56,585 nucleotides of DNA from an uncultured virus (IMG/VR IMGVR_UViG_3300023237_000005). Taxonomy: Duplodnaviria; Heunggongvirae; Uroviricota; Caudoviricetes. The first letter of the stretch is position 1. Each line of letters starts with the position of its first letter. A program made the position numbers and the translations under genes. The stretch lies in IMG/VR virus record IMGVR_UViG_3300023237_000005; one strand, written 5' to 3'. Positions 2-13,492 of this stretch are shown here, one piece after another. Under the pieces are notes generated by a model, which saw only the letters and a list, made by a program, of their open reading frames with translations, made no database searches and was not told where the DNA came from.

Positions 2-559
2 AACATAAAAAAACCGGATAAAGTCGCCGAAACTATTAAGACACTATTAGAAAGCATGTCTGGGACATTTGTTTTATTTTACGATAAGCCAACATTTTCT
101 ACAAGAGTTAATAACTTTGCTGGGTTCGTAACATCTCTTGCTAAAGTCGGTGCAGATGGTAGTTTGATGAAAGCTGCAGATGGCTTTGAAGCAATAGCAG
201 AAGCAATCAACTCTGTAGATATTGATAAAGCTGCAGCATTCAGGGGATTATTTGAAGCATCTGCATCATTGACTGAAAGCGGTAGGAATCTTGCAGCATT
301 AGAGGCGATGGTCGAAGCCATAGAGGATGTAAAAGATACACTTAATAGTCAGGGTGGTGGAGGAGCAATTGATAGCATTAAGACAGCGCTAGGATTTGGT
401 AATGCTAAAGAAGCAGTTGTAGAACCTTCTACAACTGCAGAACCTTCAACTGCAGAATTATTTAAAACATTACAGCTTACATTAAATCAGATTAATGCAA
501 CTTTGTCAAATCTTCCTGGTGATATAGCAGCAATTGAGATTAAACTTCCTAGAGATTAA
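2..559 (+). CDS. 5'-truncated Ala-rich helical protein (possibly C-terminus of a tape-measure-like/structural protein)
   Basis: Frame of ORF 56..559 is open back to the window edge; Ala/Leu-rich; function is a guess. Confidence 0.45.
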   Translation, partial: NIKKPDKVAETIKTLLESMSGTFVLFYDKPTFSTRVNNFAGFVTSLAKVGADGSLMKAADGFEAIAEAINSVDIDKAAAFRGLFEASASLTESGRNLAALEAMVEAIEDVKDTLNSQGGGGAIDSIKTALGFGNAKEAVVEPSTTAEPSTAELFKTLQLTLNQINATLSNLPGDIAAIEIKLPRD

Positions 560-630
560 ACAAACTTCCTCAACTGTGGTATAACATCCATGATTGAACG
601 AGGAAGAAGAGTTTAACTAGAATTTACAAA

Positions 631-1422
631 ATGGAAAAAGACATCATTTGGTTTGACTTAGAGTCAACTGGAATTAACACAGCTACAGATCGGGTCATTG
701 AAATCTGTATGATTAAGAAAACATCTTTAGGCAAGGAAATTGAGAGATTTCAAAGTTATGTTAATCCTGAAGGAATGGAAAGTAGACCTGAGGCTATTGA
801 TAAACATGGTATAACTCCAGAGATGTTAGCAGATAAGCCAACGTTTAAAACAATAGCAAAGAAGGTTAACGACTTTATTGGAGATTGCGATCTAGGAGGT
901 TATAATATCTTATATTTTGACATCCCACTACTTACACAAGAATTATTTAGAAGTGGTATTCCTTTCAATCATAGAAGTAGAAAGATCATTGATCCATTCC
1001 TTATTCAAACTGCATACGAACCAAGAGATTTATCAAGCACTTATAATCGTATGACAGGTAAGGTTCTTGAAAATGCCCACGCAGCTGAGGCAGACATAGA
1101 AGCTACTATTGAAATATTTGAATGCCAGAAAACTAAATATGGCCTGCCAGTAGCTCACGCTGAAATAGAAGAATCTTCCATTAAGAATAGAAAGGATCAA
1201 GTTGACTTAGCAAATAGGTTTAAGATTGCTGAAATCGACGGTAAGAGAGAAATCGTTTTCAACTTCGGTAAGAACAAAGGTAAAGTTTTTAAAGATGTTT
1301 TCTCTGAAGACGCTAGTTATATTGACTGGATGATTAATAAAGGTGACTTCCCACTGGAGACTAAAATCATAGCTAAAAAACTGGTAGATAGAATGCAAAA
1401 AGAATCATTTGTAGATATATAA
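631..1422 (+). CDS. dnaQ: DEDDh 3'-5' exonuclease (DNA Pol III epsilon-like) with C-terminal FGK motif domain
   Basis: FDLESTG (ExoI), GYNILYFD (ExoII), AHAAEAD (ExoIII); C-terminal FNFGKNKG..YIDW. Confidence 0.9.
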   Translation: MEKDIIWFDLESTGINTATDRVIEICMIKKTSLGKEIERFQSYVNPEGMESRPEAIDKHGITPEMLADKPTFKTIAKKVNDFIGDCDLGGYNILYFDIPLLTQELFRSGIPFNHRSRKIIDPFLIQTAYEPRDLSSTYNRMTGKVLENAHAAEADIEATIEIFECQKTKYGLPVAHAEIEESSIKNRKDQVDLANRFKIAEIDGKREIVFNFGKNKGKVFKDVFSEDASYIDWMINKGDFPLETKIIAKKLVDRMQKESFVDI

Positions 1423-1434
1423 ATAGAATTATAT

Positions 1435-1765
1435 GGGGGTGAGTAGTATTTGACAGCAGATGAATACTAAGAGTACAGCATGGGTGATGACCTACATCAA
1501 AACTAAGTGGAAACACTGAACTTGCAATTGCCGCCTAATAGTTAGGTACTAATGCATGCCATACTACAGAGTATACTTGTATGTAGGTTAGGCATTAAAG
1601 GAAGTAAGAACGGCATAAGTATTGGCCCAACTAATACAACATATCATTTGGCAGAATTGATCGAAAGCTGCATATTTTTGGAGTCATAAGAAAATGACTA
1701 TCCTAAGCTGTAAAATATTCTTTTTACTAATCTGTATGGACGAGGAGTCGCTTCCTCCACCTCCA
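1435..1765 (+). ncRNA. ssrA: tmRNA; tag (A)GNTELAIAA* at 1509-1538
   Basis: GGGGGTG pairs with CACCTCC-A including G3.U; 5' TTGAC and 3' GGAC motifs; tag frame gga aac act gaa ctt gca att gcc gcc taa. Confidence 0.93.
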
Positions 1766-1789
1766 CATTGATATATAAACATATATCGC

Positions 1790-2074
1790 ATGGAACATAT
1801 TTTAGAGTTTGAAGAGTTTAAACAAAATTCTCAACCACTTGACGAATCAGTTCATTCTGCTGCATCTGAGTTGCTAATGTCAATGATGAGACAATATCAA
1901 CCCCTAATGGCCTTCTTGAAATGGGAAGATACTATAATTGATAAGTTTGACATTGATCCAAAGACAGCTAAGGAGATTAGCAATAAGTTGTATGATAAGA
2001 AGGGTAGTATCAATAAGAATCACTTAAAACAGTTAGCAAACGCAGCAATTAAAGATGCCATTAAAGCTAAATAA
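1790..2074 (+). CDS. Hypothetical protein with N-terminal capsid-targeting-like motif
   Basis: MEHILEFEEF start; GATATATA at 1770. Confidence 0.7.
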   Translation: MEHILEFEEFKQNSQPLDESVHSAASELLMSMMRQYQPLMAFLKWEDTIIDKFDIDPKTAKEISNKLYDKKGSINKNHLKQLANAAIKDAIKAK

Positions 2075-2157
2075 ACAGAAAAAATAATTTTTTGTAATTT
2101 AGGTTCATTTTTAAAAACTATTGTTATAGTCTATATATAATTCAACAAACAGAAACC

Positions 2158-2256
2158 ATGCGCTTACATTGGACAACATATATTAATCTCTTTAACCCGT
2201 CAGGCAACGATACGGCGCAGGCGAGAATATGTAAAAAAGATCCAGGTAAGAGTTAA
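2158..2256 (+). CDS. Putative 32-aa leader peptide MRLHWTTYINLFNPSGNDTAQARICKKDPGKS
   Basis: Short ORF directly upstream of a strong hairpin; its 3' end (GATCCAGG) is complementary to the hairpin 5' arm. Confidence 0.4.
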   Translation: MRLHWTTYINLFNPSGNDTAQARICKKDPGKS

Positions 2257-2274
2257 CAATACATTATAACATTT

Positions 2275-2322
2275 TATAATGGCCTCCTGGATTTAACGAT
2301 TCAGGAGGCCATTATATTTGTT
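2275..2322 (+). terminator. Strong hairpin, terminator/attenuator-like
   Basis: TATAATGGCCTCCTG ... CAGGAGGCCATTATA followed by TTTGTT. Confidence 0.75.
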
Positions 2323-2411
2323 AATATTAATTTAACAGTACGAATATACAACTAACGAAAATTATTTGTATATTTATGATATTATCTAAAACGATAATAT
2401 GTTCTTTGACA
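2319..2411 (+). promoter_or_regulatory. Promoter with tandem TTAAYA repeats, TATATTT element and downstream boxA-like GTTCTTTGACA
   Basis: Same layout recurs at 5406 and (without boxA) 44248. Confidence 0.55.
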
Positions 2412-2528
2412 TCTTGGAAACCAAAAATGAAAGTAAAGTCCTTAACATTCTGTTCAGGCAGGTATTTTTGGGCGCACCTTCTACGACAGCTAAATTAATA
2501 TGAAGCTCGAGAAAAGCGCCCTATATTT

Positions 2529-2599
2529 TCCCGGATCGTCTAGCGGCAGGACGCCAGTTTTTGGAGCTGGTTACGGAGGTTCGAATCCTTCTCTGGGAA
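2529..2599 (+). tRNA. tRNA-Gln(TTG)
   Basis: TCCCGGA/TCTGGGA acceptor; CCAGT-TTTTGGA-GCTGG; GGAGG-TTCGAAT-CCTTC. Confidence 0.93.
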
Positions 2600-2601
2600 C
2601 A

Positions 2602-2682
2602 TTCAGTGTAGCTTAGATTTTCTCATAAAGGAATTAAAGCGTCTTAGCAATAAGAAGTAAGATGAATTAACATCCACTGAAT
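2602..2682 (+). ncRNA. tRNA-shaped RNA A lacking an anticodon loop
   Basis: TTCAGTG/CACTGAA acceptor; TA; GCTT/AAGC D-stem with 22-nt loop; TCTTA-GCAA-TAAGA; GATG-AATTAA-CATC. Confidence 0.65.
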
Positions 2683-2687
2683 AATAT

Positions 2688-2770
2688 GCAAGTGCGCTAG
2701 AGTTGGAGAGCTAGGATGGTCTGTAACACCGTTGGTTAAGCCTGAGTGGGTTCGATTCCCTCCACTTGCA
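2688..2770 (+). tRNA. tRNA-Tyr(GTA)
   Basis: GCAAGTG/CACTTGC; ATGGT-CTGTAAC-ACCGT; long variable arm; TTCGATT T-loop. Confidence 0.92.
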
Positions 2771-2777
2771 CATTGAA

Positions 2778-2863
2778 TGCGGTTCGATTCCGTAAGCTAT
2801 GAGCTATAACTCGTAGCTGCCAAAAGTAGTATAAAGGTTATTGAGTATTATAGTATTTAGGCA
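2778..2863 (+). ncRNA. Structured RNA starting with an isolated T-arm followed by two hairpins (permuted tRNA-like)
   Basis: TGCGG-TTCGATT-CCGTA; AGCTATGAG-CTATAA-CTCGTAGCT; TGCC...GGCA hairpin. Confidence 0.45.
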
Positions 2864-2909
2864 CTTTATTTACAGAGGCCTCGTGGTGAGGTTCATGATA
2901 TTGATATAA

Positions 2910-2994
2910 GTCCCGTTCGTCTAACCTCCGGAATTAATCCTCCAAACGGACAACAAGCGCTTGTGAATATGAGTATGGAATCTCATGCGGGACC
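2910..2994 (+). ncRNA. tRNA-shaped RNA B lacking an anticodon loop (tRNA-Glu-like 5' end)
   Basis: GTCCCGT/GCGGGAC acceptor; TC; GTC/GAC D-stem with enlarged loop; ACAA-GCGC-TTGT; ATGAG-TATGGAAT-CTCAT. Confidence 0.65.
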
Positions 2995-3002
2995 AAGTAT
3001 AA

Positions 3003-3077
3003 GCGAAAGTAGCTCAGTCTGGCCAGAGCATCAGATTTCCAATCTGAGGGTCGAGAGTTCGAATCTCTTCTTTCGCT
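3003..3077 (+). tRNA. tRNA-Gly(TCC)
   Basis: GCGAAAG/CTTTCGC; TCAGA-TTTCCAA-TCTGA; canonical D and T arms; U73. Confidence 0.95.
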
Positions 3078-3117
3078 CACTATACTATTTTTACCATCTT
3101 CTACTGATATATGCTTC

Positions 3118-3312
3118 ATGGAAGAGGTAAAGAAAGTAAGACATGCTATAAGGCGTAAGTATCATATCATTTATAAAACTACGTGTACTATCACTAATAA
3201 GTTTTATGTTAGTATGCATTCAACAGATAATCTTGAAGATGGTTATCAAGGTTCTGGTAAACGATTAAAATATTCTGTAAATAAGCATGGTATAACACAT
3301 ATTCCTCATTAG
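3118..3312 (+). pseudogene. Truncated Seg-like GIY-YIG homing endonuclease
   Basis: YHIIYKTTC..NKFYVSMHST....GYQGSG; only 64 aa, runs into tRNA-Thr. Confidence 0.75.
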
Positions 3313-3376
3313 CTCAGTTGGCCAGAGCGGTTGTTTTGTAAACAACAGGTCATCGGTTCGAACCCGGTATGAGGAT
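3303..3376 (+). tRNA. tRNA-Thr(TGT)
   Basis: TCCTCAT/ATGAGGA; GTTGT-TTTGTAA-ACAAC; ATCGG-TTCGAAC-CCGGT. Confidence 0.94.
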
Positions 3377-3403
3377 CAATAAATAAAATAAATAAACAAC
3401 GTC

Positions 3404-3895
3404 ATGAAAGTAATTGTACTAAATGCGGATCTACGTCCGATTAATGTTACAACTTTCAAAAAAGGGTTTAAGCTGATTTACAAAGGTAAAGCAGAGGTAC
3501 TTGAAACATATGAGGATGACTACATTGTGACTTACACACGGAAATTTCTTAGGCCAAGGGTTATACGTCTTCTAAACTACGTAAACTTACCATACAGAAA
3601 ATTATCACCAACAAAGAGAAATATCTTCAAGAGAGATAATTTCACTTGTATGTATTGTCCTGGTAAGAAAGACCTAACACTTGACCATGTTCAACCTAAG
3701 TCAAGAGGTGGGAAAGATACTTGGAAGAATCTAGTTACAGCTTGTTCAAAGTGTAACAATAAGAAAGATAATAAGACTCCACAAGAAGCAGGTATGAAAT
3801 TAAGAAAGGCACCAACAGCACCTTCTCTTATGGAATTGCTTGATTTAGATTCTGTGAAGATCTTTGAAAGTCTAGCGAAAGCATACACATATTGA
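3404..3895 (+). CDS. HNH endonuclease (McrA-like)
   Basis: VLNAD..P; RD.FTCMYC; LTLDHVQPKSRGG..TW.NLVTAC..CN..K. Confidence 0.92.
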   Translation: MKVIVLNADLRPINVTTFKKGFKLIYKGKAEVLETYEDDYIVTYTRKFLRPRVIRLLNYVNLPYRKLSPTKRNIFKRDNFTCMYCPGKKDLTLDHVQPKSRGGKDTWKNLVTACSKCNNKKDNKTPQEAGMKLRKAPTAPSLMELLDLDSVKIFESLAKAYTY

Positions 3896-3948
3896 ATTGA
3901 GAATGAAGTAGTATGTAATAAATTTTATGTACTACTTCTATTTTCAAT
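3896..3948 (+). terminator. Long inverted repeat after the HNH gene
   Basis: ATTGAGAATGAAGTAGTATGTAA ... TTATGTACTACTTCTATTTTCAAT. Confidence 0.55.
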
Positions 3949-4015
3949 CTAATTAAGTCAATTGTTATTTCCTTGACTAAAGTCCAATAAATAACATATA
4001 TGAAAATAGTATAAT

Positions 4016-4384
4016 ATGTGGATGGAATTAGTGATGTCGTTATTATTTTTTAGTATTAGTAGTGCTCAGGCACAAACAGTAGAACCACCAGTTGACGCTG
4101 ATGAATTTGGATGGTTACGTTGGGCAGTGATAATATTATCAGGATTAGTACTAACAGGTACTACGGCATTCTTTGCATTTATTAAACTGTCGTTTGAAAC
4201 TCGCATTACTGATAAAGATGAGGAAATAAAAAGATTAACTCATTCAACAGAAGGACAAGCTATAGTTATAGCTAAGCTTCAGAGCGATAAAGATAGCTTA
4301 AATAAGGATATGCAGGATAAAGTTATTCCAGCGTTAACGAGTGCAAGCGATCTTATAAGAACATTTTTAAATAGCGCAAGATAA
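4016..4384 (+). CDS. Membrane protein (signal peptide, TM helix, coiled coil)
   Basis: Hydrophobic N-terminus with AQA site, second hydrophobic helix. Confidence 0.65.
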   Translation: MWMELVMSLLFFSISSAQAQTVEPPVDADEFGWLRWAVIILSGLVLTGTTAFFAFIKLSFETRITDKDEEIKRLTHSTEGQAIVIAKLQSDKDSLNKDMQDKVIPALTSASDLIRTFLNSAR

Positions 4385-4809
4385 TGGAAATAATATCTAC
4401 AGAATTTGTGAGACAGCAGCTTAACGATGCTTGTGCTGATCTTGAAAGTTGCATCCATGAGTTTAGAGTACTATGTGGTACTAACGATTGGAAAGAACAT
4501 ATCATTAATATAACTGATGAGTTCACAGATATATTTCCAGACATTATGGCTAAAGTGATATTTCCAAATAAGAAAACTGGAAATAGGACTATTATGATTA
4601 AGGCTAAAGCAGGATCTAAAATTAATCTACATAAAATGTTACCTCTTAGATTTGTGTATGTAGTACATGGAGACCAACGAGATGAAACCGGTGTGATAGT
4701 TCTAAATGAAGACGAAAGCATGATAATTCAAACATTAGAAGAAAGTTCAATGTATTTTAAAATTGATACTAAGCTTATTATGGAATTTGAAGAAGATGAA
4801 GCAGCATAA
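4384..4809 (+). CDS. Hypothetical protein, possible cupin-like beta-barrel
   Basis: KAGSKINLH...YVVHG pattern; coupled to neighbours. Confidence 0.5.
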   Translation: MEIISTEFVRQQLNDACADLESCIHEFRVLCGTNDWKEHIINITDEFTDIFPDIMAKVIFPNKKTGNRTIMIKAKAGSKINLHKMLPLRFVYVVHGDQRDETGVIVLNEDESMIIQTLEESSMYFKIDTKLIMEFEEDEAA

Positions 4810-5230
4810 TATTGGCACTATACAAGATAATGTAGAAAGTTCTGTAAAGAATCTAACATTTCTTATAGATGAATTTAAACAAGTAAGTACATTATTAGAT
4901 CTGTTAGAACATAAGACGTGTCCTATGTTTGTTACTTATGCTGATGAACACGGTTATTTCAAATATGTTAATCAAAATTTCGCAGATGTATTAGGTTACA
5001 CTAAGAAAGAATTATACAATATTCCTTGGACAGAGTTAATGTCAAAACAAGAAGCTGAAAGAGTATTTAAAGAGTTAAATAAAATACTTAAAGGTGGTGA
5101 AGCATTTACAAACTATAAGACGACCTATAAAACTAAAGACGGTAAAGATATACCGCTTACTTGGTTTACCGGTCCAGTTGGTGAGATGGAAGATCAAACA
5201 GTTGCAATCTGTTTCGCATACTCACACTAA
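4796..5230 (+). CDS. Stand-alone PAS domain protein
   Basis: YVNQNFADVLGYTKKEL and YKTKDGKDIPL PAS/PAC signatures; ATG at 4796 in frame with ORF 4763. Confidence 0.85.
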   Translation: MKQHNIGTIQDNVESSVKNLTFLIDEFKQVSTLLDLLEHKTCPMFVTYADEHGYFKYVNQNFADVLGYTKKELYNIPWTELMSKQEAERVFKELNKILKGGEAFTNYKTTYKTKDGKDIPLTWFTGPVGEMEDQTVAICFAYSH

Positions 5231-5260
5231 TTTCAAATTTCAACAATTTTATTTAATTAT

Positions 5261-5336
5261 CAGGCAGTAGAGGAGTCCGGTTTATCTCGACGCATTTGGG
5301 GTGCGTAGTACGTGAGTTCGAATCTCACCTGCCTGA
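5261..5336 (+). tRNA. tRNA-Pro(TGG)
   Basis: CAGGCAG/CTGCCTG; ACGCA-TTTGGGG-TGCGT; GTGAG-TTCGAAT-CTCAC. Confidence 0.93.
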
Positions 5337-5405
5337 CTATTTTTACCATCTTCTAATGGTATACAATTGGAAGAAAGATGAACTTCTAATCTGTATCACC
5401 TTCAT

Positions 5406-5498
5406 TGTTAACATTAAATTAACATTGGGGGATGTATAAGTAAGCATTTAATAGTGTATATTGATAATGTCAATAAAACTGATGGTGGTTCTTTAAAA
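5406..5498 (+). promoter_or_regulatory. Promoter with TGTTAACATTAAATTAACA repeat, TATATTG element and boxA-like GTTCTTTAAAA
   Basis: Near-identical spacing to the 2319 element. Confidence 0.55.
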
Positions 5499-5503
5499 CA
5501 TAC

Positions 5504-5737
5504 ATGGTGGAACATATAGATAAGAAAGGTAAAGTAACATGGAAGGCTGTTAATTTGAGTGATAGATCATCTGGGCATGGTCCAATTGATATTACTACTG
5601 GGCAGTTGTATTACAACCTCTATTTAATGATGACAGATGCAACTAATCGTTCACTTAAAATAGCATCTGCATTAGACAGTTTACAATCAAAAACTAATGA
5701 AGTTGCACTAAAAGCAATTTTAGCTAAGAAATTCTAA
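5504..5737 (+). CDS. Hypothetical protein
   Basis: ORF track; follows promoter. Confidence 0.5.
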   Translation: MVEHIDKKGKVTWKAVNLSDRSSGHGPIDITTGQLYYNLYLMMTDATNRSLKIASALDSLQSKTNEVALKAILAKKF

Positions 5738-6002
5738 AAGAAGGTTCAGTAAATGATTATTATGTTATATTCTATTAGTAATTCGATTGAGACGGACAGA
5801 AGGAAAGATTAGAAAACATTAAATTACTGATAACGGTTTCAACAATTTAAAAGCGTTGTTATTATTACTACAGATTGAATAAAATATTGAATTAATTTTA
5901 CTTTTAATTTAAGGCAACTTAGCGGTTACTTAATAAGTGCGGGCTCGGAACTCGGATTGATGTTAAAGTAAAGATGGTGTGGATCCAAGCACTAATTCAT
6001 TC

Positions 6003-6013
6003 GTTCTTTGAAA
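6003..6013 (+). promoter_or_regulatory. boxA-like antitermination motif
   Basis: GTTCTTTGAAA just upstream of the large ncRNA. Confidence 0.5.
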
Positions 6014-6014
6014 T

Positions 6015-6985
6015 TATAAGCATTGGGAGGTTTAAGTTCCAATCAGCCTATCGGTTGACGTGAAACAGTTCGGCTGTCAATAAAATCATAGGTTGAAAAA
6101 AGAATAAGAATCTGCAAAGATTCAGAAAGGGGGAAGTGTTACACTAACCCGCCTAATTCGTTAGGTTCGTTTAAGCAAGTGACGTCTTAATTGCCACCTA
6201 GGCAAGACTTCGATACCAATCGGAGGATAAGCAGAAAGTTAGAGTTGTTGTCCCTTAGGAAAGGATACTACCAGAGCCGGTCGGTGAGGTACAATATTAT
6301 AGAGGTATAATAGCAGCAACATACCAATCTAATAAGTGCTAAATTGGATAAGTCATAGGATATGAGTCTAAGTTGATTACTAAAACGAAGGCAAGTAACC
6401 AATTTAAGAGAAGAAAGGATAGTTAAATATCCAAAGTAATCTTGAAGAATTGCACATAAGACTTAGTAAGTCTAAAACGCATAGAGGTGTGTTGTATTTT
6501 GAATCTCAAAAGGATTTAGATCAGCTGTCAGGGCACGTCTCAGTAACTTAAATAACATTAATTGTTAGCTCAGTTGGTAGAGCTCCTGTATTCTAAACAG
6601 GTTGTCGGTGGTTCAAATCCTCCACAATTGTATAAATGAAAACGCAAAGGCCTTGACACTAGTAGGAAAGCAAATTACCTAAGCCCAAAGTTCTTCGGAG
6701 CAATTTGGGATCACAGAAACTCGCAAAGTGAAAGTGATTTAATTTAAGTCTGCATCAAATCATCGTAGCGATGGTGAATGGCTCGCAAGGTCAGGAGAAT
6801 GATAAAAGTTGAGTAGACCTGCTATGGATAAGAGTATAGCCTCTCTTTAAAAAAGGCGGTAATGTTGGCAAACATTTTTGAGCTGCAAAGCTGAGAATGT
6901 GGATAAGATGAGAACCTATTGGAATAAGCCCTGATTGGATAATACATCGAAGGTGTTAACGTACAACGTGTAATCTCAACGTTTT
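6015..6985 (+). ncRNA. Large structured ncRNA, GOLLD-like, with embedded tRNA (boundaries approximate)
   Basis: ~1 kb without ORFs inside a tRNA array; many GNRA/UUCG-capped hairpins; CTCAAAAGG; GTTGAG pairing with 3' CTCAAC; internal tRNA. Confidence 0.7.
6559..6631 (+). tRNA. Atypical tRNA, anticodon TCT (Arg-like), inside the large ncRNA
   Basis: TAATTGT/ACAATTG; GCTC-AGTTGGTA-GAGC; CCTGT-ATTCTAA-ACAGG; GGTGG-TTCAAAT-CCTCC. Confidence 0.75.
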
Positions 6986-7018
6986 AAAACTTTTACAGTC
7001 AAACGAATAACGTAATAT

Positions 7019-7091
7019 CGCGGAGAAGAGCAAATGGGTGTTCGCTAGGCTCATAACCTAGAGGTTGTCGGTTCGAGTCCGACCTCCGCAA
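7019..7091 (+). tRNA. tRNA-Met(CAT), initiator type
   Basis: C1.A72 mismatch (CGCGGAG/CTCCGCA); CTAGG-CTCATAA-CCTAG. Confidence 0.92.
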
Positions 7092-7121
7092 CAGTCACAT
7101 TTCAGAATTAATATATAGCTA

Positions 7122-7973
7122 ATGAAAAGTCTATTTTTATTACTGTTTACACTTTTAGTTTCAGGTTGTTCAACTATGCATAGTGCATACGATGAACATT
7201 ATGTCATTGACCAGCCGCAAGTAGTTGAAGTTCAACATGTTCCGGTTTATGATAGTTATTATAACAATACGAATGCTTTCATCATTCGGTATTATTACCC
7301 TTACTTAATTTATTCTCAGCCGTATTATTGGAACAGTTGTAGGCATTATCATCATTCTCGCTATTATAATTATAGTTGTCCACATTATTACAATTCGTAC
7401 TATAATTGTTATGTATATACCGGGTATAGTAACTTTGGATCTTATGGAGTTCCTGGACCTCATTATAATGGTTGGGATGTAGTATATAGTAGAACTTATT
7501 ATGGGCATCGGCAGATGTGGTATAGCACGGTACCGTTGATGTCGAGAATAGCCAGAAGTACTAAGCCTGAGGTACGACAACAAGCTACACCTATTAGGCG
7601 AGACGTTAAACCTCAACGACAGTTAGAACCAAAGCCAGAAATTAGACACCAGCCTCAACGACAGGTTGAAAGACAACCACAGCCAGAAATTAGACACCAG
7701 CCTCAACGACAGTTACAGCCAAAGCCAGAAATTAGACACCAGCCTCAACGACAGTTACAGCCAAAGCCAGAAATTAGACACCAGCCTCAACGACAGTTGC
7801 AGCCAAAGCCAGAAATTAGACACCAGCCTCAACGACAAGTTGAAAGACAACACCAGCCTCAACGACAAGTTACACCTCAACAACAGCAATATAGAAGGCC
7901 TAGGACTCAGACTCAATATCCTAAGGTAATACCTATTAAAACATCGACGTTAAATCAAAAGCGTCCAAGATAA
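7122..7973 (+). CDS. Lipoprotein with Tyr-rich region and Gln/Pro/Arg-rich repeat tail
   Basis: Lipobox-like VSGC after a hydrophobic signal; PEIRHQPQRQ repeats. Confidence 0.8.
   Translation: MKSLFLLLFTLLVSGCSTMHSAYDEHYVIDQPQVVEVQHVPVYDSYYNNTNAFIIRYYYPYLIYSQPYYWNSCRHYHHSRYYNYSCPHYYNSYYNCYVYTGYSNFGSYGVPGPHYNGWDVVYSRTYYGHRQMWYSTVPLMSRIARSTKPEVRQQATPIRRDVKPQRQLEPKPEIRHQPQRQVERQPQPEIRHQPQRQLQPKPEIRHQPQRQLQPKPEIRHQPQRQLQPKPEIRHQPQRQVERQHQPQRQVTPQQQQYRRPRTQTQYPKVIPIKTSTLNQKRPR
7611..7872 (+). repeat. Coding tandem repeat, ~42-bp unit (QPKPEIRHQPQRQL), 5 copies plus partial
   Basis: Repeated ccaaagccagaaattagacaccagcctcaacgacag. Confidence 0.9.
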
Positions 7974-7977
7974 AGAT

Positions 7978-8244
7978 ATGGAATTAATATGCATATTTGC
8001 TATCATTTGTACACATTGGGTTACAGACTTCGTCTTTCAAGATGAAAAATGGGCACTTGGAAAAAGTAAAAGCAATAGAGAACTTCTAAAGCATACGATA
8101 ACGTATTCACTGTTATTATTTCCTTTAGCAATCTTTCTCGGTTGGAATATCATTCCATTCATACTTATCAATTTTATATTGTATAGTTATATTACAACAG
8201 AATTAAATAAACGAAATGAAAAAACCAGAGGTAATGACAGATGA
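7978..8244 (+). CDS. DUF3307-like membrane protein, probably truncated
   Basis: HWVTDFVFQ...K....LL.H...Y motif. Confidence 0.6.
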   Translation: MELICIFAIICTHWVTDFVFQDEKWALGKSKSNRELLKHTITYSLLLFPLAIFLGWNIIPFILINFILYSYITTELNKRNEKTRGNDR

Positions 8245-8452
8245 GCAGCTGCTCGAATGTAAACAATTCCTGGACTATTTTAGGGTTAAGTACGATGGTA
8301 AAGTCATTGAAATTAACTCGGGTGGAAATGGCATGGTTTTTAGAACTGATGGTAAGTTTTCTGAAAACTTTGTTGGATGTTCAATTAATAGTATTGCAGA
8401 AGCAGTAGCTAGAAAATTAGGAAAGAAAATACAAAGAGAACAAGAATACTAA
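8216..8452 (+). CDS. Hypothetical protein
   Basis: ORF track. Confidence 0.55.
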   Translation: MKKPEVMTDEQLLECKQFLDYFRVKYDGKVIEINSGGNGMVFRTDGKFSENFVGCSINSIAEAVARKLGKKIQREQEY

Positions 8453-8459
8453 AATATAC

Positions 8460-8526
8460 GGTGGATGTAGTGGTAACACGACTGCTTGTGGTGCAGTTAT
8501 CGAGGGTTCAACTCCCTTCGTCTACC
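8460..8526 (+). tRNA. tRNA-His(GTG) with G-1 and shortened D-arm
   Basis: G-1/C73; GTGGATG/CGTCTAC; ACTGC-TTGTGGT-GCAGT; D-arm only GTG-GTAA-CAC. Confidence 0.85.
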
Positions 8527-8528
8527 CA

Positions 8529-8694
8529 AAAGAAGAGAAGTAGTTAAAGCTGTTAGGTTAACAAACTCAGATATACTTGAGTCACTGTAATGCTGCACTG
8601 GGAGAATGACCCACTTACGAACAAAGGTTAATAGTAGTAAGACAGAGTTTATAGCAAACCAGTAACCTCGAAAGACCCGAAGCTTCTCTTCTTT
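8529..8694 (+). ncRNA. 166-nt structured RNA of unknown class between tRNA-His and tRNA-Cys
   Basis: Perfect 12-bp closing stem AAAGAAGAGAAG/CTTCTCTTCTTT; internal AAACTC/GAGTTT and AGGTTA/TAACCT pairings. Confidence 0.6.
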
Positions 8695-8700
8695 ATTATT

Positions 8701-8773
8701 GGTCGCGTGGCCGAGTGGCTTTAGGCATAGGACTGCAAATCCTACTACGTGTGTTCGACTCACACCGCGACCT
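8701..8773 (+). tRNA. tRNA-Cys(GCA)
   Basis: GGTCGCG/CGCGACC; TAGGA-CTGCAAA-TCCTA; U73. Confidence 0.95.
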
Positions 8774-8859
8774 CAATCTCATATTTATCATTATTTTTAC
8801 ATCTAAAATGTACAAGCTATGACAATAATAGTTATATTGATAATATAAATAAAGCTGAT

Positions 8860-9102
8860 ATGGTAGGATTAGAAAAGTATACAGATGGTCTGCAGATGGA
8901 TAAGTTTCCAACCATCAAAGAGATAAGTGTTTACAGCAACATTTATTGTGTAGGTTTTGATGGCGATCTTCTATTTGGAGAAGCTGACGATGACAACACA
9001 ACTGAATGGTTCTTGGTTGAAAATGAGTCTTTTAAGTATCTTGGAGAATCCCATACAACAGAAGGTGATAAATTGATTAGGTATAAGACAAGGCAAACGT
9101 AA
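8860..9102 (+). CDS. Hypothetical protein
   Basis: In-frame ATG at 8860 of ORF 8749..9102, whose upstream part overlaps tRNA-Cys. Confidence 0.55.
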   Translation: MVGLEKYTDGLQMDKFPTIKEISVYSNIYCVGFDGDLLFGEADDDNTTEWFLVENESFKYLGESHTTEGDKLIRYKTRQT

Positions 9103-9233
9103 GAGAAGGTAAACCAAGTTTTGTTAAATAAGAACATTATGATAACAGTATCACAAACATAGATAGCAGGACTGGTCAATATATGAAATTGTTTAACAAA
9201 ACTATAACTTCACGTTATAATAAATAAAGGAAA

Positions 9234-10250: not shown

Positions 10251-12149
10251 ATGGCATCAATAGATAAGAAGTACCAAAAGCTTACAGATGTAGAACACGT
10301 TCTACACAGGCCGGGCATGTACGTTGGCTCTATCAAAACACATACAGAAGAGTGTTGGATTTTAGAGAATGGCAAGTTTGTATTAAAGTGGGTTAGCTAT
10401 AATCCTGGCTTTCTAAAGTTATTCGATGAGATTATTTCAAACTCAGTTGACGAACATATTCGTGATCCTAAGCTTACTAAAATTAAGGTTACGATAGACC
10501 AACAGGCACACCGGATAACTGTCCATGACAACGGTGGTATACCAGTAAAAATTCATAGTAAGTACAACGAGTGGATCCCAGAAATGATCTTCTCTAACCT
10601 TAAAGCTGGTAGTAATTTTGATGACACAGAACAAAGGATAGTTGTAGGTACTAACGGTGTTGGTTCTACACTTACGAATATCTTCTCTCACGAATTTTCA
10701 ATATCAACATGTGATGGTAAAAAGAAATTCGTTCAGAAGTTCACTAAGAACATGTCTGTTCGGACCAAACCAAAAATTACAAGCGGTAAAGTAGGCTCTA
10801 CTGAAATTTCATTTATACCTGACCTGAAAAGATTTGGTATGATGAGTATTGACGATGGTGCAATTGCAATGATTAAGAAGCGAATGTTAGATATCGCAGC
10901 TTGCAATACTTCATTGTCATTAGAACTTAATGGTGAGAAGTTAAAGTATTCATCATTTAAACAATATGCTGAGTGTTATACTTCACCTGTACTCTACGAA
11001 GCATCTAAAAACTGGAAGATAGGTGTAGGTCATTCCACAAATGGTTTCCGAGCTATATCATTTGTAAATTCAGTAGAAACGAAAGACGGTGGTACACATG
11101 TAAATGTTATACTTAACCAAATCGTTAAGTCTATGCGGGAATTAATAATTAAGAAGTATAAGTATGATGTAAAACCATCTGACATCAAGCAGCATATATT
11201 TCTATTCATAGATTCTACTATTGTAAATCCAGCATTCTCATCTCAAACTAAAGAGAAGCTTATCACTGAACCGAGAGAATTTGGAAGTGAACATGAAATA
11301 TCTGAGAAGTTGCTTGTGGCAATTTATAAATCTGAAATCCTTCAATCCGTATTAGATTGGATGGAGCAAAAACAAGATGCAGAAGCTAAGCGAGAATTAC
11401 GCAAAGCTAATAGCTCACTTGATCGTAGTAAAGTTACTAAGCTCGTAGATGCAAAAGCCAGAGGTGACAGAAGTAACTGTACTTTGGCAGTGTTTGAGGG
11501 AGATTCTGCGTCTTCTGCCTTTAAAACCTACCGAGATCCAAAGACGCAAGGTGCCTTTCCATTAAGGGGAAAGTTTATAAATGTAACGGGTGCTAAAGCT
11601 ACGAAGGTAATTCAGAATAAAGAAGTCATATCGTTGATGGCATCTTTAGGATTACAGATAGGAAAGCCAGCCAAGAATCTAAGATATGGTAAAGTATTGC
11701 TGTACACGGACGCAGATTTCGATGGCAATGCGATTTCTGGACTTCTTATTAACTTCTTTGCTAAATACTGGCCTGAAATGCTAGAACATGGTATGATATG
11801 TAAAGTAGATACTCCCCTTTTAGTTGCACGCAAAGGAAAGAAAATTTTATCTTTCTATACTGATGATGAGTACACTTCTTGGCTTAGTAAAACAAAGGAT
11901 GTAAAACAGTGGGATATAGAATATAAGAAAGGATTAGCAGCACTTGAGAACGATGAATATAAAGAGATCATCAAAAATCCAAACATATACGTATTTAAGC
12001 CTGACGATATGTATGAAGATACACTCTTATCTTGGTTCGGAGATGATTCTTCTCCACGCAAAGATAGGATTATGGGTGTAGAATTACCAAAGAAAGTAAT
12101 TCGTTCTAAGAAAAAAAGCAGCAGAATACAAAATGCTAAATTATTCTAA
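10251..12149 (+). CDS. Type IIA DNA topoisomerase, ATPase/TOPRIM subunit (T4 gp39+60-like)
   Basis: EHVLHRPGMYVGS, EIISNSVD, GTNGVG, EGDSA, PLRGK, TDADFDG, KGLA. Confidence 0.97.
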   Translation: MASIDKKYQKLTDVEHVLHRPGMYVGSIKTHTEECWILENGKFVLKWVSYNPGFLKLFDEIISNSVDEHIRDPKLTKIKVTIDQQAHRITVHDNGGIPVKIHSKYNEWIPEMIFSNLKAGSNFDDTEQRIVVGTNGVGSTLTNIFSHEFSISTCDGKKKFVQKFTKNMSVRTKPKITSGKVGSTEISFIPDLKRFGMMSIDDGAIAMIKKRMLDIAACNTSLSLELNGEKLKYSSFKQYAECYTSPVLYEASKNWKIGVGHSTNGFRAISFVNSVETKDGGTHVNVILNQIVKSMRELIIKKYKYDVKPSDIKQHIFLFIDSTIVNPAFSSQTKEKLITEPREFGSEHEISEKLLVAIYKSEILQSVLDWMEQKQDAEAKRELRKANSSLDRSKVTKLVDAKARGDRSNCTLAVFEGDSASSAFKTYRDPKTQGAFPLRGKFINVTGAKATKVIQNKEVISLMASLGLQIGKPAKNLRYGKVLLYTDADFDGNAISGLLINFFAKYWPEMLEHGMICKVDTPLLVARKGKKILSFYTDDEYTSWLSKTKDVKQWDIEYKKGLAALENDEYKEIIKNPNIYVFKPDDMYEDTLLSWFGDDSSPRKDRIMGVELPKKVIRSKKKSSRIQNAKLF

Positions 12150-13492
12150 TGAGAGAAAGATTAATAACATCGTTTTTTGATACAGAGTATCTTGAATATG
12201 CACGATATGTAGTTTCTAGTCGAGCAATCCCACATCTTGTAGATGGTCTTAAGCCATCTCAGCGTAAGATCATCCATGTTGCTAATAAAATATGGAAGCC
12301 AGGTCAGTCGAAGCAGATGAAGCTTTTTCAATTGGCTGGACGAGTTGCAGCTGATGCCTACTACCACCATGGTTCAAGTTCTTTAGAAAGCGCAATGGTT
12401 AATATGACTCAAACATTTAAGAATTCATTGCCACTTCTCAGGGGTCATGGTCAGTTTGGAACATTGAGAGAACCAGATGCTGGCGCCCCTCGTTATATCG
12501 GTGCTTCACTTCATCCTAACTTTCATTTAATTTACAAAGACTTCGATTTATTAGAACCTAAGACAGAGGAAGGATATGAAATCGAACCCGAATTCTTTTT
12601 GCCAATTATCCCAACAGTCATTTTAAATGGTACATCAGGTATAGCAGTCGGGTTTGCCACTAAAATCTTGAACAGGAAGCCACTTGATGTTATAAATGCT
12701 TGCATAGATGTATTAAACGGAAAGGAACTTAAGCCTCTTATACCTTGGATTAAAGGCTTTGATGGAGAGTTCAAAAGGAATATATTAAATCCCAATTCCT
12801 GGACACTCCATGGTAAGTACAAAGTAGTAAACACAACAACTGTTCATATAAGTGAAATACCACCAAACATTACATGTGAAAGCTATGAAGAACATCTTAT
12901 CACATTATTAGATAAGAAGATAATTTCTGACTACGAAGATAACTGTTCAGGTAGTATTGATTATACGATAAAGTTTAAAAGAGTAGGACTTAAAGATCTA
13001 ATCACGAAAGGTAAACTTGAAAAGGTGTTGCGATTAGCATCTAAAGATACAGAGAATCTAACAGTATTAGATGAAACTGGAACACTTAAGATATTCTTAT
13101 CAGCAGAAGATATCGTTCATCATTTTGTCAATGTAAGATTAACCTATTATGATAAGAGAAAATTCTTACTGATAGATAATCTAGAACGGTCTATTATTAG
13201 ATTGACGAATATGGCTAGGTTCATAAAAGACATTATTGATGGAAAACTCAAAGTCAATAACGTAGCTAAAACGACAATTATTTCTTATTTAGAAAAACAC
13301 AAATACGATAAGATAGAAGATTCATTTGGATATCTGCTGAACATGCCGATTTATTCATTGACTAAAGAGCGGTTCGAAGACTTACTTAAAAAGAAAGGAG
13401 AAGCAGAAACAGACCTAAGTCATACTAAAACACTACAAGCAAAGGACATGTATCTTGAAGACTTAACTAAACTTAAAAAAGAATTAACGTAA
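12149..13492 (+). CDS. Type IIA DNA topoisomerase, breakage-reunion subunit (T4 gp52-like)
   Basis: RAIP..VDGLKPSQRK, YHHG, APRY catalytic Tyr, NGTSGIAVGFAT. Confidence 0.97.
   Translation: MRERLITSFFDTEYLEYARYVVSSRAIPHLVDGLKPSQRKIIHVANKIWKPGQSKQMKLFQLAGRVAADAYYHHGSSSLESAMVNMTQTFKNSLPLLRGHGQFGTLREPDAGAPRYIGASLHPNFHLIYKDFDLLEPKTEEGYEIEPEFFLPIIPTVILNGTSGIAVGFATKILNRKPLDVINACIDVLNGKELKPLIPWIKGFDGEFKRNILNPNSWTLHGKYKVVNTTTVHISEIPPNITCESYEEHLITLLDKKIISDYEDNCSGSIDYTIKFKRVGLKDLITKGKLEKVLRLASKDTENLTVLDETGTLKIFLSAEDIVHHFVNVRLTYYDKRKFLLIDNLERSIIRLTNMARFIKDIIDGKLKVNNVAKTTIISYLEKHKYDKIEDSFGYLLNMPIYSLTKERFEDLLKKKGEAETDLSHTKTLQAKDMYLEDLTKLKKELT

What the first reader, a model, noticed from the sequence alone, without database searches (positions are those of the whole stretch)
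6015..6985. ~1 kb GOLLD-like giant ncRNA carrying an internal tRNA
Seen: an ORF-free kilobase dense with tetraloop hairpins (e.g. GAATCT-GCAA-AGATTC, GTTC-TTCG-GAGC, AGCT-GCAA-AGCT), a long-range GTTGAG/CTCAAC pairing closing the 3' domain, boxA immediately upstream and a tRNA at 6559. Known: GOLLD RNAs are ~800-nt phage/tRNA-array RNAs of unknown function that sometimes embed tRNAs. The family assignment here rests on recalled motifs and context, not a search.
Basis: partly seen in the sequence, partly recalled or inferred. Interest (0 to 1): 0.7.

Follow-up and report, generated by a model that had tools for sequence, protein, structure and literature searches.

The report
Phage GOLLD RNA carrying a tRNA
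This stretch is a gene for GOLLD, a giant cage-forming phage RNA of unknown function, here with a working-looking arginine tRNA built into its middle and an rRNA-style anti-termination signal in front, which makes it a useful but not unprecedented example.

Summary
Window 6482-6982 (+) matches Rfam GOLLD (RF02032) over the whole model, 163.9 bits against a gathering score of 150. No ROOL match appeared. tRNA-Arg(UCU), 6559-6631, sits in the model's unstructured linker.

The 5' half (about 6023-6481) is not the common GOLLD 5' domain: one sequence profile and two covariance models found nothing. It belongs to a second 5' architecture shared with 24 viral-contig GOLLDs. That architecture is backed by covariation: 92% of cells paired against 70% in shuffles.

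In that group 19 of 24 carry a tRNA or tRNA-like element in the same linker slot, with at least seven different anticodons. None of 54 common-type GOLLDs does.

The same motif extended by ACT, as a 14-mer, lies upstream of 16S or 23S rRNA genes in 43 of 124 sampled genome loci.

The gene lies in a 7.8-kb tmRNA/tRNA/HNH island of a relative of huge phages.

This is a new member of a known family. Expression and function remain untested.

The parts
6003..6013 (+). boxA-like leader motif GTTCTTTGAAA, about 10 nt before the first hairpin of the RNA
   Evidence: Exact match. The same 11-mer, with at most 1 mismatch, lies at the equivalent place on the GOLLD strand in 50 of 79 other viral GOLLD loci, with none on the other strand. 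The closest relative L310 has GTTCTTTAACA aligned to it. The 14-mer GTTCTTTGAAAACT lies within 550 nt upstream of a 16S or 23S 5' site in 43 of 124 genome loci, with none on the opposite strand.
6023..6481 (+). GOLLD 5' domain of a non-standard architecture
   Evidence: No match to the common 5' domain by profile or by models R1 and R2. nhmmer aligns it with 24 of 41 loci found through a shared 17-mer, full length in L310, L329, L326 and L309. The consensus structure has 69 pairs, 54 of them with compensatory changes. 92.0% of cells are paired, against 70.0% in shuffles and 35-41% when slid. The window keeps 62 of the 69 pairs.
6228..6358 (+). Conserved core module of that 5' domain, including the invariant 17-mer CAGAGCCGGTCGGTGAG at 6272-6288
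   Evidence: The 17-mer is shared with L037 and was used for the scan. Model R3, built from alignment A5, also hits phage DSS3_MAL1 (44.2 bits), L052 and L073 (40.6), and Sinorhizobium phage Phosso (25.2, E 0.007). It hits none of the common-type loci.
6482..6541 (+). First hairpin of the Rfam model (P14 in the published numbering), with the A-rich loop TCAAAAG at 6506-6512
   Evidence: Rfam alignment, model positions 1-62. Loop position. The naming of P14/L14 follows PMC12990946 (passages).
6542..6650 (+). Variable linker holding the embedded tRNA
   Evidence: Aligned to the unstructured model positions about 63-130, with the tRNA as an insertion.
6559..6631 (+). tRNA-Arg, anticodon UCU, no encoded CCA
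   Evidence: ARAGORN. Rfam tRNA 55.6 bits, full model. The sequence after 6631 reads ATAAAT. AGA makes up 222 of 439 Arg codons in 37 window ORFs.
6651..6982 (+). Remainder of the conserved GOLLD 3' domain, ending in the terminal loop GTAATCTCA
   Evidence: Rfam alignment to model positions about 131-416, including the long-range [[ ]] helix.
7019..7092 (+). tRNA-Met, 36 nt downstream, probably on the same transcript
   Evidence: ARAGORN and Rfam. No terminator-like site lies between 6982 and 7019. Co-transcription is inferred.
2386..2411 (+). Hairpin plus a second boxA-like motif (GTTCTTTGACA, 2401-2411) at the head of the tRNA array
   Evidence: Motif. The sequence shows TATTATC-TAAAAC-GATAATA directly before it, and the first tRNA at 2529. 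Its function is inferred.

Best explanation
This is a complete GOLLD RNA gene of a large phage, about 960-980 nt from roughly 6003/6023 to 6982 on the + strand. It is built as: boxA-like leader, a non-standard 5' domain, hairpin P14, a linker carrying tRNA-Arg(UCU), then the conserved 3' domain.

The most likely working is as follows.

1. It is transcribed with the neighbouring tRNA genes as a long untranslated operon. The boxA leader recruits the host NusB/S10 antitermination complex, as in rRNA operons, so that polymerase completes the kilobase of structured RNA. This step is inferred; I put it at about 0.5.
2. The two domains fold separately and the RNA assembles with copies of itself into a closed cage, as cryo-EM has shown for two other GOLLD RNAs. 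The linker, and so the tRNA, would then face the interior. This is inferred from 3'-domain homology; about 0.6.
3. The tRNA is a real decoder of AGA, the phage's commonest arginine codon. Either it is cut out by RNase P and a 3' processing enzyme, leaving two GOLLD pieces that may stay associated, or it is held inside the cage as a protected or timed store. I rate these two outcomes about equal.

Shown here: family membership, the position of the tRNA, homology and covariation of the 5' domain, conservation of the tRNA slot and of the leader motif, and the genomic context.
For: Family membership: Rfam GOLLD 163.9 bits against a gathering score of 150, over the full model. Identical sequence is present in a second metagenome contig, L266, which is 99.3% identical over window 477-8185 with no difference in 5700-7100. 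It is also held in 20 DNA runs from 19 studies.

5' domain: 24 of 41 loci found with the 17-mer are relatives. Of 20 of these scanned, 18 reach the GOLLD gathering score. Covariation is strong: 92.0% of cells paired against 70.0% shuffled (0 of 500 shuffles as high), and covariation score 0.627 against 0.223 shuffled and at most 0.131 slid.

tRNA slot: 19 of 24 relatives have a tRNA in the same slot. These are 15 of 20 by covariance model, 3 more by ARAGORN, and L037 by covariance model. Anticodons seen are CUU, UUU, UCU, UUC, UGA, UUG and CCA. The three tRNA-less members whose slot I read (L300, L305, L297) keep a T-arm-like hairpin or GGTTCAAAG remnant there.

Contrast: all 54 common-type GOLLDs have loop-to-3'-motif spacings of 296-326 nt, which leaves no room for a tRNA, and none has an ARAGORN tRNA there.

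Decoding role: the tRNA scores 55.6 bits, within the 43.8-69.6 range of the array's other tRNAs, and AGA is 222 of 439 Arg codons.

boxA: found in 50 of 79 common-type leaders and 11 of 22 leaders of this group, with none on the opposite strand. It is linked to rRNA genes in 43 of 124 genome loci. A second copy heads the tRNA array.

Cage and interior-facing linker: Kretsch et al., bioRxiv 10.1101/2024.12.08.627333 (section 5 and passages read) and PMC12990946 (passages).
Against: No transcript evidence could be obtained, so expression, RNA ends and processing are unknown.

The 3'-domain score is only 14 bits above the gathering score, and the alignment has several large insertions.

Cage formation has been shown only for GOLLDs with the common or a reduced common 5' domain. 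This 5' domain is different, so the copy number per cage, or assembly itself, could differ.

In relatives some slot tRNAs look non-standard. Four have irregular anticodon loops according to ARAGORN. Three carry a Ser anticodon on a 73-74-nt body without the long variable arm that bacterial tRNA-Ser has (the arm rule is textbook knowledge). Five of 24 have no tRNA. A decoding role is therefore not general.

boxA is absent, at one mismatch or fewer, from 29 of 79 and 11 of 22 leaders. Window-wide there are 8 one-mismatch sites against 2.9 expected, and 1 of 100 shuffles reached 8.

A variant contig in one run carries 5 listed substitutions and one 1-nt deletion in 6018-6345. Two keep pairs as G-U, one breaks a pair, and the deletion removes a paired base. 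This is not decisive.
Confidence: 0.75

Rival explanations
1. The tRNA is an ordinary, independent tRNA gene that landed in a tolerant, unstructured linker. It has no functional tie to GOLLD. It is processed out like any tRNA in the array, and its position is neutral.
For: The linker is variable and unresolved in the published structure. The window's tRNA looks canonical. The island is full of tRNAs. tRNA identity in the slot changes freely between relatives, as expected for cassette turnover.
Against: The slot is occupied in 19 of 24 relatives of this 5'-domain type but in 0 of 54 common-type GOLLDs. The insertion point is the same each time, about 250-280 nt after the 17-mer. The three tRNA-less members whose slot I read (L300, L305, L297) retain a T-arm-like hairpin or GGTTCAAAG remnant there rather than plain linker. 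This pattern suggests selection on the element.
Confidence: 0.25
2. The embedded element works as a tRNA-shaped module rather than a decoder. It could be a handle or decoy for tRNA-binding proteins such as RNase P, modification enzymes or host anticodon nucleases, or a structural elbow inside the cage.
For: In relatives, four slot elements have irregular anticodon loops and three pair a Ser anticodon with a short class-I body. Several score low, 41.8-48.5 bits. The three tRNA-less members whose slot I read keep only a T-arm-like hairpin or remnant. A published proposal of 'inhibited storage' exists for a Mycolicibacterium GOLLD tRNA (PMC12990946, passage). A pseudo-tRNA inside a mycobacterial GOLLD was not detectably expressed (PMC6582537, passages).
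Against: The window's own tRNA and those of its closest relatives are canonical by covariance model: 55.6 bits here, 69.8 in L310 and L329, 59.8 in L326. It is the only tRNA-Arg found in the window. It reads the phage's main Arg codon.
Confidence: 0.25
3. The 5' half (about 6015-6481) is not part of the GOLLD RNA. It is a spacer, or a separate small RNA that merely folds well.
For: The Rfam model covers only 6482-6982. There is no similarity to the common GOLLD 5' domain.
Against: The same 5' architecture sits at a fixed distance upstream of a GOLLD 3' domain, on the same strand, in 24 other loci. It has strong covariation. Sequence similarity to the common type resumes about 50 nt before the Rfam start.
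Confidence: 0.05
4. The GTTCTTTGAAA motif is not an antitermination signal. It is conserved as part of the RNA fold, or as a promoter or processing element, or it matches by chance.
For: The single-sequence MFE pairs 6003-6011 with 6442-6450. The motif is short. One-mismatch copies occur elsewhere in the window. It is missing from many GOLLD leaders.
Against: Comparative structure pairs 6440-6450 locally with 6402-6411 instead, leaving the motif unpaired. In common-type GOLLDs it lies 60-80 nt upstream of the conserved body. One locus, L052, carries the enterobacterial-style variant GCTCTTTAAGAA instead. The 14-mer GTTCTTTGAAAACT, which contains the motif, is tied to rRNA leaders and 16S-23S spacers across several phyla.
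Confidence: 0.3

Closest known systems
GOLLD RNA (Rfam RF02032; env-38 14-mer and Streptococcus agalactiae 12-mer cages solved by cryo-EM)
   Same: The conserved 3' domain matches over the whole model above the gathering score. Shared features are the A-rich P14 loop, the terminal GUAAUCUCA loop, a variable linker, and a phage and tRNA-island context.
   Different: The 5' domain is not the common P1-P13 type. It is a second, covariation-supported architecture. The score is much lower than in the huge-phage relatives, which reach 275-287 bits. Multimerisation is untested.
GOLLD RNAs with an embedded tRNA: Mycolicibacterium/Mycobacterium tRNA-array GOLLD (tRNA-Phe or pseudo-tRNA in J13/15)
   Same: A tRNA in the single-stranded linker, a location inside a large tRNA cluster, and an HNH endonuclease gene in the same cluster (window 3404-3895; PMC6582537 and PMC12990946 passages).
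   Different: Here the tRNA is Arg(UCU) with a canonical score, and the host element is a large phage, not a bacterial chromosome or plasmid array. Whether the mycobacterial 5' domain is of the same type could not be checked, because Morgado et al. 2020 is not held.
GOLLDs of cultured phages found here: Caulobacter phage phiCbK group, roseophage DSS3_MAL1 and Phaeobacter phage MD18, Sinorhizobium phage Phosso
   Same: All three records searched reach the Rfam cut-off (165.3, 160.5 and 186.6 bits). phiCbK has an annotated tRNA-Gly inside the GOLLD span, and DSS3_MAL1 an annotated tRNA-Arg. DSS3_MAL1 also has a tmRNA next to it and matches the 5' core model (44.2 bits).
   Different: Only the 3' half is similar in sequence to the window. 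phiCbK does not match the 5' core model at E<=0.01. None of the records annotates the GOLLD itself.
rRNA-operon boxA / Nus-factor antitermination
   Same: The 14-mer GTTCTTTGAAAACT, which contains the window's 11-mer, occurs upstream of 16S and 23S genes in many phyla. As in rRNA operons, it precedes a long, highly structured, untranslated RNA. Many GOLLD leaders have a variable hairpin directly 5' of it, which recalls the rrn boxB-boxA order; that order is from my recall.
   Different: No binding or read-through data exist. No boxC was sought. The hairpin before the window's own motif is weak.
ROOL RNA
   Same: Large, cage-forming phage RNA found near tRNA islands.
   Different: No ROOL match in the window at the gathering score or at E<=1.

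Membership tests
GOLLD RNA (RF02032) | Covariance-model score at or above Rfam's gathering score, over the full model | tested here: met
   163.9 bits against 150, model positions 1-416 of 416, E 3.2e-44; reproduced on a 2-kb stretch.
GOLLD RNA (RF02032) | Conserved sequence landmarks of the 3' domain: A-rich loop of the first hairpin, GUGGAUAAGA, terminal GUAAUCUCA loop, long-range helix | tested here: met
   All are present in the alignment (TCAAAAG at 6506-6512; GTGGATAAGA at 6899; GTAATCTCA at 6971-6979). The cmscan alignment marks some pairs across the match as non-standard.
GOLLD RNA (RF02032) | Common 5' domain (P1-P13 of the published consensus) | tested here: not met
   The profile of 33 representatives gives no hit at E<=10 in the window, against 221 and 196 bits in L004 and L005. 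Models R1 and R2 give nothing in 5700-6500, against 108/94 and 84/80 bits in the controls. The literature describes the 5' region as less conserved, so this does not exclude membership.
GOLLD RNA (RF02032) | A structured 5' domain joined to the 3' domain on one strand | tested here: met
   An alternative architecture is shared with 24 loci: 69 pairs, 54 compensatory, 92% of cells paired against 70% shuffled. The window keeps 62 of 69 pairs.
GOLLD RNA (RF02032) | Phage or prophage location near tRNA genes | tested here: met
   9 tRNAs within 2529-8774. Phage replication genes. Nearest topoisomerase relatives are 635-642-kb uncultured phages, two of which carry GOLLD.
GOLLD RNA (RF02032) | Self-assembly into a homo-oligomeric cage | not testable with these tools
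   Known from cryo-EM of other members. No RNA multimer prediction or experiment was available here.
GOLLD RNA (RF02032) | Expressed as a long RNA during phage growth | not testable with these tools
   No RNA data for this phage could be reached, so this feature could not be examined.
ROOL RNA | Match to the Rfam ROOL model | tested here: not met
   No hit at the gathering score in the whole window, nor at E<=1 in 5500-7500.
tRNA (embedded tRNA-Arg) | Cloverleaf recognised by two independent detectors, with a 7-nt anticodon loop | tested here: met
   ARAGORN tRNA-Arg(tct) at 6559-6631. Rfam tRNA 55.6 bits against 29, model positions 1-71.
tRNA (embedded tRNA-Arg) | Matured, CCA-tailed and aminoacylated | not testable with these tools
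   CCA is not encoded. There are no expression data.
boxA / Nus antitermination site | Match to the boxA sequence used in rRNA operons | tested here: met
   GTTCTTTGAAA at 6003-6013. The 14-mer containing it lies upstream of 16S (27 loci) or 23S (16 loci) 5' sites in 43 of 124 genome loci, with 0 on the opposite strand.
boxA / Nus antitermination site | Conserved at the same place in related leaders | tested here: met
   50 of 79 common-type GOLLD leaders, 11 of 22 leaders of the window's group, and L004 of a huge phage. It is not universal.
boxA / Nus antitermination site | Binding of NusB/S10 and increased read-through | not testable with these tools
   This needs biochemistry or genetics.

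The most novel reading that the evidence does not exclude
GOLLDs with this second 5' architecture form a dedicated tRNA-carrying class. The cage exists to hold a tRNA or tRNA-shaped module on its inner face, either as a pool shielded from host anticodon nucleases or as a decoy for them. The cargo is exchangeable, since at least seven anticodons occupy one fixed slot. Synthesis of the whole untranslated kilobase depends on hijacking the host's rRNA antitermination machinery through boxA. The link to anticodon nucleases is my own inference from recalled target lists, not from any call.
Probability: 0.15. Interest if true: 0.85.

Novelty: new member of a known kind. Interest (0 to 1): 0.5.

Why it matters
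GOLLD has had no known function since 2009, although its cage structure is now solved. This locus and its relatives sharpen the question in three ways.

1. A conserved tRNA slot is strongly associated with one 5'-domain type: 19 of 24 relatives of that type carry a tRNA there, against 0 of 54 of the common type. The tRNA is therefore unlikely to be a chance passenger.
2. A leader motif of the kind found in rRNA operons gives a concrete, testable idea of how such a long untranslated RNA is completed.
3. Cultured phages carry GOLLDs with an annotated tRNA inside: the phiCbK group on Caulobacter, and DSS3_MAL1 on Ruegeria. No record annotates the GOLLD itself. Knock-outs, RNA-end mapping and cryo-EM of a tRNA-bearing GOLLD are therefore feasible in model hosts.

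The papers I could read mention embedded tRNAs only in passing. I could not see Weinberg et al. 2009, Morgado et al. 2020 or Chen's thesis, which may already describe the 5' variants or the leader.

Tried and rejected
- blastn of 5740-7120 against 50,697 phage records found only tRNA-length matches.
- A window-specific 3'-domain pattern in viral contigs gave 0 hits.
- A search for relatives of ORF 7122-7973 in viral contigs found none.
- I looked for GOLLD next to the topoisomerase gene in 15 related contigs and found none. The island is not syntenic.
- nhmmer of the 5' half against 119 GOLLD loci found by a 3' motif gave no hit. Relatives appeared only after the shared 17-mer was noticed in L037.
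- Sequencing runs: no RNA holder is listed. There are 20 DNA holders in runs mostly labelled salt lake metagenome.
- Laying contigs of four runs gave one low-depth variant contig, too few changes to test the structure.
- The single-sequence MFE helix between the boxA motif and 6442-6450 was rejected, because comparative pairs use 6440-6450 locally.
- A sigma-70 promoter and terminator scan of 5200-7400 found no more promoter-like sites than shuffles (7 against 8.3), and no terminator between GOLLD and tRNA-Met.
- Folding of 5900-6020 shows no convincing hairpin before the motif (z 0.69).
- No whole genome is held for the window. PMC7549688 is not held.
- Literature: no paper in the library holds GOLLD together with boxA in the RNA sense (the 4 hits are plant papers). 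GOLLD with antitermination gave 4 papers; I checked one and it does not link them. GOLLD with phiCbK gave none.
- The formal pair count for the hairpin 5' of boxA in common-type leaders was not done, because the stems fall in different alignment registers.
Full report
OBSERVATION. Between 6015 and 6985 only two short minus-strand ORFs occur, of 44 and 41 aa. The three quoted tetraloop hairpins are present. Window 6000-6990 holds 7 GNRA/UNCG-capped hairpins with stems of at least 4 bp, against 1.1 +/- 1.0 in 1000 mononucleotide shuffles, and none of the shuffles reached 7. ARAGORN finds tRNA-Arg(tct) at 6559-6631. GTTCTTTGAAA stands at 6003-6013.

IDENTITY. Rfam's GOLLD model (RF02032) matches 6482-6982 on the + strand over all 416 model positions, at 163.9 bits against a gathering score of 150 (E 3e-44). 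The match is reproduced on a 2-kb stretch with permissive filters, where no ROOL or other large-RNA family appears at E<=1. In the printed alignment the first hairpin, with its TCAAAAG loop, comes first. A long unstructured part of the model follows, and the tRNA sits in it as an insertion. The conserved AAACGCAAAG, the long-range helix, GUGGAUAAGA and the terminal GUAAUCUCA loop come after that. The Rfam tRNA model scores the insert at 55.6 bits, inside the 43.8-69.6 range of the other tRNAs of the array. [quoted passage not shown] These are Kretsch et al., bioRxiv 10.1101/2024.12.08.627333 and PMC12286853 (section 5 and passages), and PMC12990946 (passages).

CONTEXT. Nearly all long ORFs are on the + strand. 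They include a polymerase-exonuclease subunit, a two-subunit T4-type topoisomerase II, a Lon-like protease, a helicase and an HNH endonuclease. The topoisomerase is closest (53-55% identity) to uncultured phages of 635-642 kb. Two of three such genomes carry a GOLLD of their own, at 287 and 275 bits.

The GOLLD lies in an RNA-gene island. The nearest viral-contig relative, L125 (topoisomerase 71% identical), goes from the exonuclease gene to the phosphoesterase gene in about 900 bp. The window has 7.8 kb there, at 1423-9233. A metagenome contig of the same phage, L266, is 99.3% identical over 477-8185 and has an identical GOLLD. Beyond 8185 it differs by a 1.46-kb insertion with further tRNAs. 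More distant relatives have a tmRNA in the same place. The window itself has one at 1435-1768, at 51.6 bits against a gathering score of 47. The whole-window scan and ARAGORN had both missed it.

THE 5' HALF. Rfam models only the 3' domain. I built a profile of the common 5' domain from 33 non-redundant viral GOLLDs. The profile scores 221 and 196 bits in the two huge-phage GOLLDs and finds nothing in the window. Two covariance models cover about 215 of its roughly 410 positions. They score 108/94 and 84/80 bits in those controls and nothing in 5700-6500. Sequence similarity to the common type resumes only about 50 nt before the Rfam start.

The way forward came from L037, an outlier locus whose linker also holds a tRNA (52.2 bits). 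L037 shares the 17-mer CAGAGCCGNTCGGTGAG with window 6272-6288. A scan of viral contigs with that 17-mer returned 41 loci. By nhmmer with the window as query, 24 of them are relatives on the same strand. Four align over essentially the full length: L310 (6002-6985), L329, L326 and L309. Of 20 that I scanned with Rfam, 18 reach the GOLLD gathering score; one of the two that did not is cut by a contig end.

I aligned the 5' domains of the window and 22 relatives. One duplicate and one short row were left out. The alignment gives a consensus of 69 pairs, of which 54 show compensatory changes. 92.0% of cells are paired, against 70.0% in 500 shuffles (none as high) and 34.8-40.7% with partners slid by 1-3 columns. 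The covariation score is 0.627, against 0.223 shuffled and at most 0.131 slid. The window forms standard pairs at 62 of the 69 positions. A covariance model of the core module (R3) also hits cultured phage DSS3_MAL1 (44.2 bits), two further outlier loci (40.6) and, weakly, Sinorhizobium phage Phosso (25.2 bits, E 0.007). It hits none of the common-type loci. The 5' half is therefore a real, conserved GOLLD 5' domain of a second architecture.

THE tRNA SLOT. Among the 24 relatives, a tRNA lies inside the GOLLD at the same place in 19. That is 15 of 20 by the Rfam tRNA model, three more by ARAGORN, and L037. ARAGORN's anticodons are:
- CUU in five loci, two pairs of which are near-duplicates;
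- UGA in three;
- UUU, UCU, UUC, UUG and CCA in one each;
- four elements have irregular anticodon loops.

The three UGA elements are 73-74 nt long. They therefore lack the long variable arm of bacterial tRNA-Ser (textbook knowledge). Of the five without a tRNA, the three whose slot I read keep a T-arm-like feature there: GGGTTCAAAGCCC in L300 and L305, and a GGTTCAAAG remnant in L297.

By contrast, 54 of the 79 loci of the first sample with enough upstream sequence have the common 5' domain. All 54 have a loop-to-3'-motif spacing of 296-326 nt, against 393 in the window. ARAGORN finds no tRNA in that interval in any of the 119 loci; its 25 calls all lie just upstream of the GOLLD.

Both samples were drawn with exact motifs, so these are not population frequencies. 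Embedded tRNAs also occur outside the 17-mer group. Caulobacter phage phiCbK has GOLLD at 165.3 bits with an annotated tRNA-Gly inside, and it does not match R3.

In the window the tRNA is the only tRNA-Arg found. AGA is 222 of 439 arginine codons in 37 ORFs.

THE LEADER. GTTCTTTGAAA, with at most one mismatch, lies 725-875 nt upstream of the 3' motif on the GOLLD strand in 50 of the 79 loci. It occurs nowhere else in those sequences and never on the other strand. It sits 60-80 nt before the conserved body and is usually preceded by a hairpin whose stem differs between loci: CGG/CCG, CAGG/CCTG, GTTCTC/GAGAAC, GTTACTC/GAGTAAC. One locus has GCTCTTTAAGAA instead. In the window's own group 11 of 22 leaders have such a motif, and L310 has GTTCTTTAACA aligned to the window's.

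To test whether this is the rRNA-operon boxA, I scanned one genome per species for GTTCTTTGAAAACT. The last three letters were recalled. 21 of the loci have under 150 nt of downstream sequence. The hits include Bacillota, Mesorhizobium, Nitrospira and others.

A second copy, GTTCTTTGACA at 2401, follows a 7-bp hairpin and precedes the first tRNA by 118 nt. Window-wide, 8 one-mismatch sites occur against 2.9 expected. The single-sequence fold had paired the motif with 6442-6450. The comparative structure instead pairs 6440-6450 with 6402-6411, so the motif is probably single-stranded. I found no paper in the library that links GOLLD with boxA.

HOW IT MOST LIKELY WORKS. These things are shown here: family membership, two-domain anatomy, a conserved tRNA slot, a conserved leader motif, and the location in a mobile island. 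These are inferred: co-transcription with the tRNA array under Nus-type antitermination (about 0.5), and self-assembly into a cage with the tRNA on the inner face, by homology with solved GOLLDs (about 0.6). The fate of the tRNA is open. Its canonical shape and the codon usage favour release by RNase P and a 3' processing enzyme. Release would cut the RNA between P14 and the rest. The published contacts of P14 with the 3' domain make it plausible that the pieces stay together. The odd tRNA-like elements and T-arm remnants in relatives favour a tethered structural or decoy role.

COMPARISON AND NOVELTY. This is a new member of a known family, with a known kind of variation: a variable 5' region and a tRNA in the linker. 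I did not find three things in the papers I could read: the association of the slot with one 5' architecture, the exchange of tRNA identity in a fixed slot, and the boxA leader.

LIMITS. There are no expression data. Samples were defined by motifs and capped. E-values from my own models are rough. The hairpin before boxA was not formally tested.

Noticed in passing
window 1435-1768 (+): A phage-encoded tmRNA gene (Rfam 51.6 bits against a gathering score of 47). Its tag frame at 1509-1541 reads GNTELAIAA**. It was missed by the whole-window Rfam scan and by ARAGORN. Relatives L267, L268, L269 and L274 have a tmRNA at the same place after the exonuclease gene. DSS3_MAL1 and L037 also have a tmRNA beside their GOLLD.
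   Followed up: partly
window 1423-9233: The whole tmRNA/tRNA/HNH/GOLLD island is absent from the nearest relative L125, which has about 900 bp there. It also varies between strains: L266 has a 1.46-kb insertion with extra tRNAs after 8185.
   Followed up: partly
window 2273-2411: A terminator-like hairpin (GGCCTCCTGGA...TTCAGGAGGCC plus a T-rich tail) is followed by a 7-bp hairpin and the boxA-like GTTCTTTGACA, 118 nt before the first tRNA. This looks like the start of the tRNA operon.
   Followed up: no
window 7122-7973, at 7757: A 283-aa ORF just after tRNA-Met has Q/P-rich repeats; the peptide words used include HQPQRQ. It differs from strain L266 by a 42-nt in-frame indel. There was no family match in PHROGs.
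   Followed up: no
L037 655-715 and L302 (rows L299 and L302 of alignment A4): A hammerhead-like motif (CUGAUGA, stem, GAAAC, stem, GUC) sits at the 5' edge of the GOLLD 5' domain in two relatives. The stems differ between the two. Rfam Hammerhead_1 scores 26 bits, below its gathering score of 34. It could set the RNA's 5' end by self-cleavage.
   Followed up: no
NC_019405.1 102288-102774 (-); MN602268.1 7420-7883 (+); PV764938.1 33533-34001 (+): Cultured phages phiCbK (Caulobacter), DSS3_MAL1 and Phosso (Sinorhizobium, 469 kb) carry unannotated GOLLD RNAs above the Rfam cut-off. In phiCbK the annotated tRNA-Gly lies inside the GOLLD, and in DSS3_MAL1 the annotated tRNA-Arg does.
   Followed up: partly
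L007 and about 20 similar loci (one metagenome): A further GOLLD group has only weak similarity to the common 5' domain (about 40 bits). In the six I inspected, the linker is long, AT-rich and without a tRNA, with spacing of 382-394 nt. This is possibly a third 5' type.
   Followed up: no
L318 680-886: A manA RNA motif (55.5 bits against a gathering score of 55.2) lies directly upstream of a GOLLD in a viral contig.
   Followed up: no
window 40912-43035 and 10251-13492: A Lon-like ATP-dependent protease (PHROG 4871, E 5e-202) and a two-gene T4-type topoisomerase II. Both are typical of very large phages.
   Followed up: no
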